Sequence record: MN850577.1 | DNA: 64,000 nt | Reading direction: 5' to 3' (one strand) | DNA from: Escherichia phage heid | Shown: positions 30,764-31,549 of the stretch, one piece after another | How positions within the stretch are numbered: the first letter of the stretch is position 1 | Layout: the number at the start of each line of letters is the position of its first letter | Position numbers and translations under genes: made by a program | The notes under the pieces: generated by a model | Databases searched by the model: none | Told to the model about the DNA's origin: nothing | Seen by the model: only the letters and a program-made list of their open reading frames with translations

Positions 30764-31549
30764 TTAGTTCTTTGCGTCTAAGAAGGTAACTTCTGGTGAA
30801 GAGAAAACTGTCTCGATATCCTCATCAGTTCTTGCATAGATATAAGTATCTGCATCACTGCCAAATGTTACTGCAATCCTGTGATTGCTCTTCGACAGGT
30901 GGGTAACTAGAGCGTTACTCAGAGACATCTTTTCAACCGGAGGGTTACTTTGATGTATCTTACCTTTTCTTCGTCTGAAGAGGGTAACTGCGTTATCTGT
31001 GAACACTGCTACACCTGCAAAGTATTCTGGTTCACAGTAGTTCTTCCAACCTGAGCGTAACTTGTGGTACATCTCTCCTTCGTAGACATAAAGATACACA
31101 TCTACACTCTTCATCACCTGATTAATGATAACTGTGACGGCTTGAGGGTCTAGCCCACCGATACCTGCACCAATCATAGGTAAACCAACCTTCTTCAACT
31201 GGTTGACTTCACAGTATCTGTTAAGCTGTTTCAAAGATGACTCTAAAGCACTGTATCGGGCATCTTTACCAGTCTTAAGCTGAGTGTAAAGGTTAGCTAT
31301 ACGACCTTGTTTTAAACGTGCTACAGAGAAATTACCCAGTAAATTTTCACAGGGTTTGTGTCCTATACCACCTGCATATAGATAAACTTCTGTATCGGTC
31401 TCATATGCTTTTGGGTAAAGTTTAGAAATCTTGTCAGCGATACCTGCACCCATTAAATTCATACAGTTGCAACCGTGACCGATGATGTCAAACTTACCTT
31501 TATCAAATGCGGCAAAGATATCACCATTGATTATTTTTACAATACCCAT
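30764..31549 (-). CDS. macro-domain protein (TARG1/OARD1-like ADP-ribose hydrolase-type) with about 110-aa C-terminal extension
   Basis: N-terminal about 150 aa with GDIFAA...IIGHGCNCMNLMGAGIA...LPMIGAGIGGLDP, resembling the TARG1-type macro-domain signature (GD[LI]F...HC.S.DC.MGAGIA). Confidence 0.6.
   Translation of the reverse strand: MGIVKIINGDIFAAFDKGKFDIIGHGCNCMNLMGAGIADKISKLYPKAYETDTEVYLYAGGIGHKPCENLLGNFSVARLKQGRIANLYTQLKTGKDARYSALESSLKQLNRYCEVNQLKKVGLPMIGAGIGGLDPQAVTVIINQVMKSVDVYLYVYEGEMYHKLRSGWKNYCEPEYFAGVAVFTDNAVTLFRRRKGKIHQSNPPVEKMSLSNALVTHLSKSNHRIAVTFGSDADTYIYARTDEDIETVFSSPEVTFLDAKN

What the first reader, a model, noticed from the sequence alone, without database searches (positions are those of the whole stretch)
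30764..31549. TARG1-like macro-domain protein with an uncharacterised C-terminal domain, next to the small-gene array
The N-terminal about 150 aa carry a TARG1/OARD1-type macro-domain signature (GDIF...IIGHGCNCMNLMGAGIA...), the class that removes ADP-ribose from proteins or nucleic acids; in toxin-antitoxin systems the same fold reverses DNA ADP-ribosylation. A phage copy could counter ADP-ribosylating host defences or process ADP-ribose derivatives, and would fit with the nearby NAD+-reconstitution pair. The about 110-aa C-terminal extension has no recognisable motif.
Basis: partly seen in the sequence, partly recalled or inferred. Interest (0 to 1): 0.65.

Follow-up and report, generated by a model that had tools for sequence, protein, structure and literature searches.

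The report
Phage macrodomain hydrolase with orphan tail domain
A Felix O1-like phage gene encodes an ADP-ribose-removing enzyme of a phage family recently shown to defeat two bacterial defences, here fused to a fast-evolving extra domain of unknown fold found only in this phage subfamily.

Summary
Window 30764-31549 (minus strand) is a 261-aa gene with an N-terminal macrodomain (aa 1-156) and a 105-aa C-terminal domain. The window is a Felixounavirus.

TARG1 and DarG are the nearest solved structures, but the TARG1 catalytic pair is replaced: Lys84 by an invariant Gln90 and Asp125 by Gly131. The true relatives are single-domain phage macro proteins:
- T4 Tk.4 "AdfM" (35% identity). Its knockout sensitises T4 to DarTG2.
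- Vibrio phage Gary Adpp (27%). It is an ADPR-1''-phosphate phosphatase that lets NARP1 overcome aRES, and H24A or N27A kills it. The equivalent His25 and Asn28 are invariant here.

Tk.4 and Adpp are 39% identical to each other and occur once per genome, so sequence cannot decide the substrate. This phage also carries the prototype NARP1 pair, 7.5 kb upstream.

The C-terminal domain has no sequence or fold match outside its own family. It occurs only fused to this macrodomain in Ounavirinae. It evolves several times faster than the macrodomain but remains under purifying selection.

Verdict: a new two-domain variant of a known counter-defence enzyme. I rank DarT2 reversal first (0.4) and Adpp-type phosphatase second (0.3).

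The parts
30764..31549 (-). Complete CDS (261 aa plus TAA stop) of the two-domain macro protein
   Evidence: ORF list. PHROG_335 matches the full length at E=1.9e-113. 100% identical protein in Salmonella phage DaR-2019a and 95-97% in other Felixounaviruses.
31082..31549 (-). Macrodomain, aa 1-156 (ALC1-like class; phage Tk.4/Adpp clade)
   Evidence: Pfam Macro. PDB profile hits to OARD1 and DarG. Foldseek top hits TARG1 and DarG. PADLOC and NCBIfam DarG models hit at E~1e-13, macro part only. 35% identity to T4-type Tk.4.
31436..31477 (-). Active-site and phosphate-binding motif H25-G-C-N28-C-M-N-L-M-G-A-G-I-A38
   Evidence: H25, G26, N28, C29, M33, G34, A35, G36 and A38 are invariant in 19 two-domain homologs. 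H25 and N28 correspond to Adpp H24 and N27, whose Ala mutants lose anti-aRES function. N28 corresponds to PhiKZ AdfM N23.
31280..31294 (-). Invariant N86-L-Y-T-Q90 motif; Gln90 sits where TARG1 and DarG have the catalytic Lys
   Evidence: HMMER alignments to OARD1 pair LYTQ with LITK. The motif is invariant in the family and shared with Tk.4 (NLYTQ) and Adpp (NVYGQ, NLHAQ).
31154..31180 (-). Second ADP-ribose-binding loop P124-M-I-G-A-G-I-G-G132; Gly131 sits where TARG1 has Asp125
   Evidence: Alignment to OARD1 PRIGCGLDR. P124, G127, A128, G129, I130 and G132 are invariant.
30767..31081 (-). C-terminal domain, aa 157-261: one linker helix followed by a mainly beta domain of unknown fold, restricted to Ounavirinae macro proteins
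31557..31563 (-). Shine-Dalgarno-like GGGAGAG, 9 nt upstream of the ATG; the upstream ORF's TAA (31550-31552) abuts the ATG
   Evidence: Read directly from the sequence.
30693..30734 (-). Terminator-like hairpin plus T-run, 30 nt after the stop codon; it ends the long minus-strand early gene block
   Evidence: Terminator scan: 17-pair stem, 6 GC pairs, then TTTTCATTT. The KhF3, KhF2 and XTG1 records annotate terminators under the match.
39035..41758 (-). Context: NARP1 pair, Adps (40862-41758, PRPP-synthetase-like) and Namat (39035-40816, NAMPT-like); possible pathway partner acting in trans
   Evidence: Pfam Pribosyltran/Pribosyl_synth and NAPRTase/NAMPT_N. NARP1 was defined in Bas63, a Felixounavirus. 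The same synteny is present in Erwinia Kolesnikvirus, and matching-size unannotated CDSs sit at the equivalent position in Wc4.

Best explanation
The gene encodes a counter-defence enzyme. Its N-terminal macrodomain binds ADP-ribose and hydrolyses the bond at the ribose C1''. Catalysis does not use the TARG1/DarG lysine. It uses the His25/Asn28/Gln90 active site shared by the phage Tk.4/Adpp clade.

The most likely job is that of its closest tested relative, T4 Tk.4 (AdfM). Acting as an orphan antitoxin, it strips ADP-ribose from thymidines in phage single-stranded DNA that a host DarT2-type toxin has modified, so that replication can proceed.

The C-terminal domain is an Ounavirinae-specific accessory module. 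Because it evolves fast and is replaced in one genus, I infer that it binds a variable partner (substrate DNA, a phage protein or a host defence protein) and does not carry out catalysis.

What is shown: the gene, the fold, intact ADP-ribose-binding and family catalytic residues, family membership, restriction of the C-terminal domain, and its selection regime.

What is inferred: hydrolase activity, the substrate, and any role of the C-terminal domain.
For: - Closest functionally tested homolog is T4-type Tk.4: 35% identity over 163 aa, 85 bits. All 10 Ounavirinae macro domains tested score highest against Tk.4 (70-93 bits), ahead of Gary Adpp (44-66), K412 Adpp (43-60), TARG1 (30-54) and PhiKZ AdfM (23-35).
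- A tk.4 knockout sensitises T4 to DarTG2 (preprint 10.1101/2025.11.20.689424).
- DarG is the only significant family in PADLOC (E=3e-13) and NCBIfam (E=9.5e-13). TARG1 and DarG are the best fold matches. ALC1-like macrodomains are the ones that robustly cleave thymidine-ADPr (PMC12879935).
- A Lys-less ALC1-like enzyme, SCO6735, still cleaves thymidine-linked ADPr-DNA (PMC7050489; PMC12879935).
- ADP-ribose-binding loops and Asn28 (equivalent to PhiKZ AdfM N23) are invariant.
- The 'macro plus second domain' architecture parallels DarG2, whose second domain binds DarT2. A small-molecule phosphatase has no evident need for a fast-evolving extra domain; NARP1-embedded Adpp proteins are single-domain, 148-158 aa.
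- The gene lies outside the NARP1 operon, at the end of an early-type gene block with its own terminator.
Against: - No activity has been measured for any Ounavirinae member. The Tk.4 result is genetic only and from a preprint.
- The protein lacks the Lys that is essential in TARG1 and conserved in DarG and PhiKZ AdfM.
- Gary Adpp, a proven ADPR-1''P phosphatase, is as close to Tk.4 (39% identity, 86 bits) as Tk.4 is to this protein, so similarity to Tk.4 does not exclude phosphatase activity.
- The phage carries NARP1, and NARP1 and this gene co-occur in each Ounavirinae lineage examined (window and Kolesnikvirus annotated; Wc4 by position and size only).
- The C-terminal domain shows no similarity to the DarG C-terminal domain.
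Confidence: 0.4

Rival explanations
1. Adpp-type ADPR-1''-phosphate phosphatase acting in trans with the phage's NARP1. When a host aRES (RES-domain) defence cleaves NAD+ to nicotinamide plus ADPR-1''P, which Adps cannot use, this enzyme removes the 1''-phosphate to give ADPR. Adps and Namat (39035-41758) then rebuild NAD+.
For: - It belongs to the same Poa1p-like phage macro family as Vibrio phage Gary Adpp, which converts ADPR-1P to ADPR in vitro and is required for NARP1-AP to defeat aRES.
- The residues whose mutation abolishes Adpp function (H24A, N27A) are His25 and Asn28 here, invariant in 19 homologs.
- The phage carries the prototype NARP1: Bas63 is a Felixounavirus.
- NARP1 and the macro gene co-occur on the same strand of the same gene block in Felixounavirus and Kolesnikvirus, and apparently in Wc4.
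- About 257 records carry the two-domain macro and about 257 carry a Namat of at least 60% identity.
- Macro genes of this family occur once per genome (2793 records with 2798 places; 1059 with 1060). A phage therefore has either an in-operon or a distal copy, never both.
- aRES occurs in E. coli, Klebsiella and Enterobacter.
- PHROG_335 is annotated 'phosphatase'.
Against: - The gene is not in the NARP1 operon. It lies about 7.5 kb and a dozen genes away, with rIIA and rIIB in between, and was not picked up by the study's two-gene neighbourhood criterion.
- It is more similar to Tk.4 than to either Adpp exemplar.
- The extra C-terminal domain is unexplained.
- T4 keeps Tk.4 and uses it against DarTG2; T4 carries no NARP1 (my knowledge, not tested here), so the family has a NARP1-independent role.
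- Erwinia Kolesnikvirus has Gln in place of His25, the position whose Ala mutant inactivates Adpp.
- Co-occurrence within one subfamily is not phylogenetically independent evidence.
Confidence: 0.3
2. A hydrolase for another ADP-ribose conjugate. Candidates are ADP-ribosylated protein or RNA made by host (or the phage's own) ADP-ribosyltransferases, O-acetyl-ADP-ribose, or ADPR-based immune signals. It may also be a broad-specificity enzyme covering several of these as well as the two tested roles.
For: - Macrodomains are promiscuous across substrates linked at C1'' or C2'' (PMC9503650; PMC7050489).
- Some records annotate the ortholog as O-acetyl-ADP-ribose deacetylase.
- One family already contains a phosphatase and an anti-DarT2 factor at 39% identity.
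- A relative is fused to a cREC domain predicted to process ADPR derivatives (P0026).
Against: No direct evidence exists for any of these substrates in this clade. The two experimentally supported roles already account for the family's conservation.
Confidence: 0.15
3. A catalytically inert ADP-ribose reader or sequestering protein. The macrodomain only binds ADP-ribose or an ADPR-derived signal, and the C-terminal domain provides the output or oligomerisation.
For: The TARG1/DarG catalytic Lys and acid are missing. Non-catalytic macro 'readers' exist in the ALC1-like class.
Against: The same Lys-less active site is catalytic in Gary Adpp. His25, Asn28 and Gln90 are invariant, and macrodomain dN/dS is 0.01-0.05, which fits an enzyme. 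Mutating H24 or N27 kills function in Adpp.
Confidence: 0.05

Closest known systems
T4 Tk.4, named AdfM (anti-DarT factor Macrodomain) in the HIDEN-SEQ preprint 10.1101/2025.11.20.689424
   Same: 35% identity over the whole macrodomain. Shares the HGCNC...MG(A/S)G(I/V)A, NLYTQ and P-x-IG-x-GI-x-GG motifs, including Gln at the TARG1-Lys84 position. One copy per phage genome, in an early-type gene region.
   Different: Tk.4 is a single domain of 159 aa, whereas this protein has a further 105-aa C-terminal domain. T4 lacks NARP1 (my knowledge, not tested here), whereas this phage has it. The Tk.4 function is known only genetically.
Adpp, the ADPR-1''-phosphate phosphatase of NARP1-AP (Vibrio phage Gary KNV71_gp137; preprint 10.64898/2026.01.28.702374)
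   Same: Same Poa1p-like phage macro family, 27-28% identity. The functionally required His and Asn are conserved (H25, N28). The phage also encodes Adps and Namat.
   Different: Adpp is embedded between Adps and Namat and is single-domain (148-158 aa). Here the gene is 7.5 kb from NARP1 and carries an extra domain. Sequence similarity is lower than to Tk.4.
DarG2 antitoxin macrodomain and human TARG1/OARD1 (ALC1-like macrodomain class)
   Same: Best sequence and fold matches among solved structures. Minimal macro fold. Identical MGAGIA phosphate loop and GDxF adenine contact. Like DarG2, it has a macro domain followed by a second domain.
   Different: The catalytic Lys (TARG1 K84, conserved in DarG) is Gln90, and TARG1 Asp125 is Gly131. 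There is no DarT partner gene. The C-terminal domain is unrelated to the DarT-binding domain of DarG. The NCBIfam DarG score is 48 bits against a 250-bit cut-off.
PhiKZ gp104, also named AdfM (Cell Rep 2026, PMC13309987)
   Same: A phage orphan macrodomain that removes DarT2-installed ADP-ribose from ssDNA in vitro. The conserved catalytic-site Asn (N23) aligns with Asn28.
   Different: It is a different macro subfamily: it keeps the DarG-like Pro-Thr-Lys motif, and shares only about 23% identity (26 bits) with this protein. The shared name hides two non-orthologous families.
Yeast Poa1p (PDB 6LFQ-6LFU), an ADP-ribose 1''-phosphate phosphatase
   Same: The N-terminal 60 residues, including the motif region, match at E=6e-5. 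It is the closest characterised homolog of Adpp by HHpred according to the preprint. GenBank records annotate orthologs as 'Poa1p_like'.
   Different: Only the N-terminal third aligns significantly. It is a eukaryotic tRNA-splicing housekeeping enzyme with no C-terminal domain.

Membership tests
Pfam Macro domain (PF01661) | Score above the curated gathering threshold over most of the model | tested here: met
   32.3 bits against a cut-off of 22, model positions 2-117 of 118. All two-domain homologs are also annotated PF01661.
ALC1-like class / TARG1 (OARD1) | Minimal macro fold most similar to TARG1 and DarG | tested here: met
   Foldseek top hit TARG1 4j5r (E=2.7e-9, target TM 0.81), followed by Taq and Mtb DarG. 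Profile search: OARD1 at E=3.7e-11.
ALC1-like class / TARG1 (OARD1) | Catalytic Lys84 that forms the covalent intermediate | tested here: not met
   HMMER alignments place the invariant Gln90 opposite Lys84 (LYTQ against LITK). No conserved Lys lies nearby in the family.
ALC1-like class / TARG1 (OARD1) | Acidic partner at position 125 of the catalytic dyad | tested here: not met
   PMIGAGIGG aligns with PRIGCGLDR, so Gly131 lies opposite Asp125.
ALC1-like class / TARG1 (OARD1) | ADP-ribose-binding elements: GDxF adenine contact and the two Gly-rich phosphate loops | tested here: met
   G9-D10-I-F, M33-G-A-G-I-A (identical to TARG1 MGAGIA) and P124-x-I-G-A-G are conserved or invariant.
DarG antitoxin (type II TA DarTG2) | Equivalog-level match to the full DarG model, including the C-terminal DarT-binding domain | tested here: not met
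DarG antitoxin (type II TA DarTG2) | Adjacent darT toxin gene | tested here: not met
   The neighbours are a 66-aa Cys-rich ORF upstream, and a terminator plus a ~520-bp non-coding gap downstream. The gene is an orphan within a lytic phage genome.
DarG antitoxin (type II TA DarTG2) | Conserved catalytic Lys (shared with TARG1 Lys84) | tested here: not met
   Gln90 occupies that position. The review states that the Lys is conserved between DarG and TARG1. PhiKZ AdfM keeps it, as PTK.
Phage Tk.4 / T4-type AdfM family | Full-length macro similarity and the shared HGCNC / NLYTQ / IG-x-GI-x-GG motif set | tested here: met
   35% identity, E=3e-25 over aa 3-160. Motifs compared. Tk.4 is the best-scoring reference for all 10 Ounavirinae members.
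Phage Tk.4 / T4-type AdfM family | Protects the phage against DarTG2 | not testable with these tools
   Known only for T4 tk.4, by knockout.
Adpp (NARP1-AP phosphatase) | Poa1p-like macro with the functionally required His24 and Asn27 | tested here: met
   H25 and N28 are invariant in 19 homologs. The mutations are listed in the preprint's supplement. Alignment.
Adpp (NARP1-AP phosphatase) | Encoded within the NARP1 operon (within two genes of Adps or Namat) | tested here: not met
   The macro gene is at 30764-31549 and Namat at 39035-40816, with about a dozen ORFs including rIIA and rIIB between them. The same separation is seen in Kolesnikvirus and Wc4. No Felixounavirus or Salmonella phage entry was found in the study's supplementary files.
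Adpp (NARP1-AP phosphatase) | NARP1 (Adps plus Namat) present in the same genome | tested here: met
   Pfam hits on 40862-41758 and 39035-40816. Namat is 95-99% identical across Felixounaviruses. NARP1 was defined in the Felixounavirus Bas63.
Adpp (NARP1-AP phosphatase) | ADPR-1''P phosphatase activity | not testable with these tools
   Shown only for Gary Adpp.
PHROG_335 ('phosphatase') | Significant full-length profile match | tested here: met
   E=1.9e-113, aa 1-260 on profile positions 53-312 of 422.

The most novel reading that the evidence does not exclude
The Ounavirinae-specific C-terminal domain is a new fold that gives the enzyme a second, non-catalytic mode of counter-defence. It would directly bind and neutralise a host defence protein such as DarT2 or aRES, or tether the hydrolase to replicating phage DNA. 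That would make this protein a convergently evolved, two-pronged DarG-like antitoxin built from an unrelated second domain. Its fast evolution, and its replacement in Kolesnikvirus, would be the signature of an arms race at that interface.
Probability: 0.2. Interest if true: 0.7.

Novelty: new variant of a known kind. Interest (0 to 1): 0.45.

Why it matters
Felix O1-like phages are widely used for typing and therapy, and one of them, Bas63, is the phage in which NARP1 was defined. This gene predicts an untested layer of their counter-defence.

- If the protein acts like Adpp, the prototype NARP1 phage already carries a distal third component, and NARP1-AP is much more common than operon-based counting (15%) suggests.
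- If it acts like Tk.4, Ounavirinae carry an orphan DarG-type antitoxin.
- The family also poses a clean enzymological question. A proven ADPR-1''P phosphatase and an anti-DarT2 factor are 39% identical and share a Lys-less active site. Either one enzyme does both jobs or a few residues switch specificity.
- The C-terminal domain is a compact, confidently predicted orphan fold with a very narrow distribution, which makes it a tractable target for structure and interaction studies.

Tried and rejected
- **C-terminal domain searched alone.** The word-indexed homolog search found nothing, not even orthologs. Pfam gave only a sub-threshold NAC hit at E=0.12.
- **Diverged cREC domain.** Suggested by the Macro-cREC fusion P0026. 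Rejected: hhalign probability 0.06%.
- **A conserved partner gene.** The translationally coupled upstream ORF is a Cys-rich 66-aa protein here, an acidic helical protein in Wc4 and an o-spanin-like lipoprotein in Kolesnikvirus, so it is not conserved.
- **Charge or pI as a DNA-binding indicator.** Uninformative: C-terminal net charge ranges from -5 to +4 across the family, and the DNA-acting PhiKZ AdfM is itself acidic.
- **Distance tree to separate Adpp from AdfM.** The two NARP1-embedded exemplars do not cluster together, and the Gary/River4 type sits near the Tk.4 group, so there is no clean split.
- **Rfam scan of 27.5-32.5 kb.** Only chance-level miRNA-type hits, far below gathering scores.
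- **AFDB50 fold search.** Not available on the machine.
- **Kolesnikvirus C-terminal extension.** Not detectably homologous to this one: hhalign probability 0.07%.
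Full report
**1. The observation**

Window 30764-31549 holds one ORF on the minus strand, ATG to TAA, encoding 261 aa.
- A GGGAGAG Shine-Dalgarno-like motif lies 9 nt upstream of the ATG. The ATG directly abuts the TAA of a 66-aa upstream ORF.
- A 17-bp terminator-like hairpin with a T-run follows the stop codon.
- Pfam Macro is significant: 32.3 bits against a cut-off of 22.
- PHROG_335 ('phosphatase') matches the whole length at E=1.9e-113.

The window is a Felixounavirus. 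The region is 97% identical to phage KhF3, and 242 phage records match it. An identical protein occurs in Salmonella phage DaR-2019a.

**2. Anatomy**

A diverse set of two-domain homologs was found, 246-264 aa long and down to 32% identity. An AlphaFold model built on them is confident, with pLDDT 84.5 and pTM 0.83.
- Residues 1-156 form the macro fold.
- Residues 158-167 form a helix.
- Residues about 179-239 form six beta strands, followed by a short helix.

Family-invariant residues cluster in three motifs:
- H25-G-x-N28-C ... M33-G-A-G-x-A38
- N86-L-Y-T-Q90
- P124-x-x-G-A-G-I-x-G132

**3. What the macrodomain is**

By sequence, the nearest solved structures are OARD1/TARG1 (profile E=3.7e-11), M. 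tuberculosis DarG (3.5e-9) and T. aquaticus DarG (1.5e-7). Yeast Poa1p matches only the first 60 residues. By fold, TARG1 and DarG are also first. In the PADLOC and NCBIfam libraries, DarG is the only significant family (E~1e-13). It covers the macro half only and scores far below the equivalog cut-off.

The HMMER alignments place the invariant Gln90 opposite TARG1 Lys84, and Gly131 opposite Asp125.
- According to the Rack et al. review, Lys84 and the acid at position 125 form the TARG1 catalytic dyad. DarG keeps only the Lys. SCO6735 lacks both yet is an active ALC1-like hydrolase.
- SCO6735 also cleaves thymidine-linked ADPr-DNA.

The protein is therefore ALC1-like in fold and ligand binding, but it is not a TARG1- or DarG-type enzyme in mechanism.

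**4. The real family and its two demonstrated functions**

tblastn finds the macro part in 2,793 phage records, almost always once per genome (2,798 places). Only about 257 records cover the full length.

*Tk.4.* T4-type Tk.4 is 35% identical and shares all three motifs, including NLYTQ. A 2025 preprint shows that tk.4 is the single T4 gene needed to resist DarTG2 and renames it AdfM.

*PhiKZ gp104.* This separate protein is also called AdfM. It removes DarT2-installed ADP-ribose from ssDNA in vitro. It keeps the DarG-type Pro-Thr-Lys motif and is only distantly related to this protein, at 26 bits.

*Adpp.* A 2026 preprint from the Sorek laboratory describes the aRES defence, which cleaves NAD+ to ADPR-1''-phosphate. 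NARP1 cannot use that product. In 15% of NARP1 operons a Poa1p-like macro protein, Adpp, dephosphorylates it.
- Gary Adpp mutants H24A and N27A lose the anti-aRES function. These positions are His25 and Asn28 here.
- I recovered Adps-Macro-Namat operons in Vibrio phages K412 and River4, and the Gary Adpp sequence from the supplement.

*Comparison.* All ten Ounavirinae macro domains tested score best against Tk.4 (70-93 bits). Gary Adpp follows (44-66 bits), then K412 Adpp, TARG1 and PhiKZ AdfM. However, Tk.4 and Gary Adpp are 39% identical to each other (86 bits). In a distance tree the two NARP1-embedded exemplars do not group together, while the Ounavirinae proteins form their own clade. Sequence therefore places this protein firmly in the Tk.4/Adpp clade but cannot decide its substrate.

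**5. Context**

The window carries Adps (40862-41758) and Namat (39035-40816). These are orthologs of the pair in which NARP1 was discovered, in Bas63, a Felixounavirus.

The macro gene lies 7.5 kb downstream on the same strand, separated by about a dozen genes including rIIA and rIIB. It is the last gene before a terminator, a ~520-bp non-coding gap and the small-gene array.

The same order is annotated in Erwinia Kolesnikvirus: Adps-Namat ... rIIA-rIIB ... polynucleotide kinase ... spanin-macro-gap-small genes. In Salmonella phage HMD-P8 the annotated rIIB-to-macro portion matches. The unannotated Pectobacterium phage Wc4 has CDSs of matching size at the equivalent positions.

Co-occurrence of NARP1 and the macro gene is thus subfamily-wide, but it is not phylogenetically independent evidence. 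The immediately upstream gene is not conserved.

**6. The C-terminal domain**

It has no Pfam match. A profile search of 1.84 billion representatives returned only macro-fusion proteins of this family, gene-call fragments of them, and repeat-inflated hits to long repetitive proteins.

It is homologous in Wc4 (hhalign 95.6%). The ~100-aa extension in Kolesnikvirus is not detectably related.

| Measure | Macrodomain | C-terminal domain |
|---|---|---|
| Identity to distant family members | 40-53% | 13-19% |
| Invariant columns | 38 of 156 | 2 of 105 |
| dN/dS within Felixounavirus | 0.01-0.09 | 0 to 0.45 |
| dN/dS against Mooglevirus | 0.17-0.20 | 0.46-0.53 |

The C-terminal domain is therefore a real, folded, constrained domain. 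It evolves several-fold faster than the catalytic domain and is confined to one phage subfamily.

**7. Interpretation**

*Shown.* The protein is a member of the phage Tk.4/Adpp macrodomain clade. Its ADP-ribose-binding loops and the family catalytic His and Asn are intact. It is fused to an orphan domain.

*Inferred.* It hydrolyses a C1''-linked ADP-ribose conjugate as a counter-defence.

*Ranking.* I rank reversal of DarT2 DNA ADP-ribosylation first (0.4), for four reasons:
- the consistently higher similarity to Tk.4;
- DarG being the only defence-library match;
- the position outside the NARP1 operon;
- a two-domain architecture that fits a macromolecule- or protein-directed factor better than a small-molecule phosphatase.

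The Adpp-in-trans model is a close second (0.3), because the phage is the NARP1 prototype, His25 and Asn28 are conserved, and the family occurs as a single copy per genome. A dual-function enzyme is entirely possible. Other substrates (0.15) and a non-catalytic reader (0.05) are less likely.

**8. Novelty and verdict**

The macro half is a new member of a family whose function was established in homologs in 2025-2026. GenBank already labels orthologs 'phosphatase', 'macro domain-containing protein' or 'O-acetyl-ADP-ribose deacetylase'.

What is new is the conserved fusion to an orphan, fast-evolving domain. It also follows that the prototype NARP1 phages carry a distal Adpp/AdfM-type gene that operon-based surveys missed. 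This is a new variant of a known kind, of moderate interest, with decisive experiments that are simple to run.

Noticed in passing
window 30241-30763: The ~520-bp gap downstream of the macro gene has no credible ORF. It contains short direct repeats: three copies of a 34-nt unit CTGCAC(G/A)nTTTGAAAATGAA... at 30560, 30599 and 30672; a 34-nt pair at 30500 and 30657; and a 19-nt pair at 30617 and 30638. A gap of similar size (about 450-570 bp) follows the macro gene in HMD-P8, Wc4 and Kolesnikvirus. No Rfam family matches.
   Followed up: partly
window 27800-30300: The small-gene array is punctuated by repeated intergenic modules. These include a 100-nt unit that is 100% identical at 28346-28445 and 29764-29863 (67% at 29417-29516), and a 40-nt unit TTTTGAATCTCCTAGTTTAAGGAC... 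in four copies. A 33-nt inverted repeat at 29448-29524 overlaps one copy. They look like reiterated promoter/terminator cassettes between single-gene units.
   Followed up: partly
window 31550-31750 (-): A 66-aa ORF is translationally coupled to the macro gene (TAA abuts ATG). It has a CxxC ... CxxCxC pattern (MADFCKDCS...VICEGCGCIW), which is zinc-ribbon-like. It is conserved in Felixounaviruses ('Phage conserved protein [Salmonella phage FelixO1]') but replaced by unrelated genes in Wc4 and Kolesnikvirus.
   Followed up: partly
L004 4998-5780 (Erwinia phage vEam_W_25, Kolesnikvirus): The Kolesnikvirus ortholog has Gln instead of the otherwise invariant His25 (AIGQGCNC). This is the position whose Ala mutant inactivates Adpp. 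Its ~100-aa C-terminal extension is not detectably homologous to the Felixounavirus one.
   Followed up: partly
protein P0026 (metagenomic, 339 aa): A relative of this macrodomain is fused to a cREC_REC domain (PF20274, 'cyclic-phosphate processing receiver'). This is a different C-terminal partner, itself predicted to act on ADPR derivatives.
   Followed up: no
literature: The name AdfM is used for two non-orthologous phage macro proteins. T4 Tk.4 has Gln at the catalytic-Lys position. PhiKZ gp104 has a DarG-like Lys. They share only about 23 bits in blastp. Annotation transfer by name would be misleading.
   Followed up: yes
window 33582-34277 (-) and 33106-33585 (-): The 231-aa ORF annotated 'polynucleotide kinase' in related phages, and the 159-aa ORF after it, give no Pfam hit at E<=0.001. 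Whether the phage really has an RNA-repair module near the macro gene was not examined.
   Followed up: no
vs one search hits: Pseudomonas phage Ep020 (OQ603351.1) 80636-83027: In this 98-kb Pseudomonas phage the macro hit (80636-81124) lies directly beside the Namat hit (81288-83027). This is another NARP1-adjacent macro gene, in an unannotated record.
   Followed up: no
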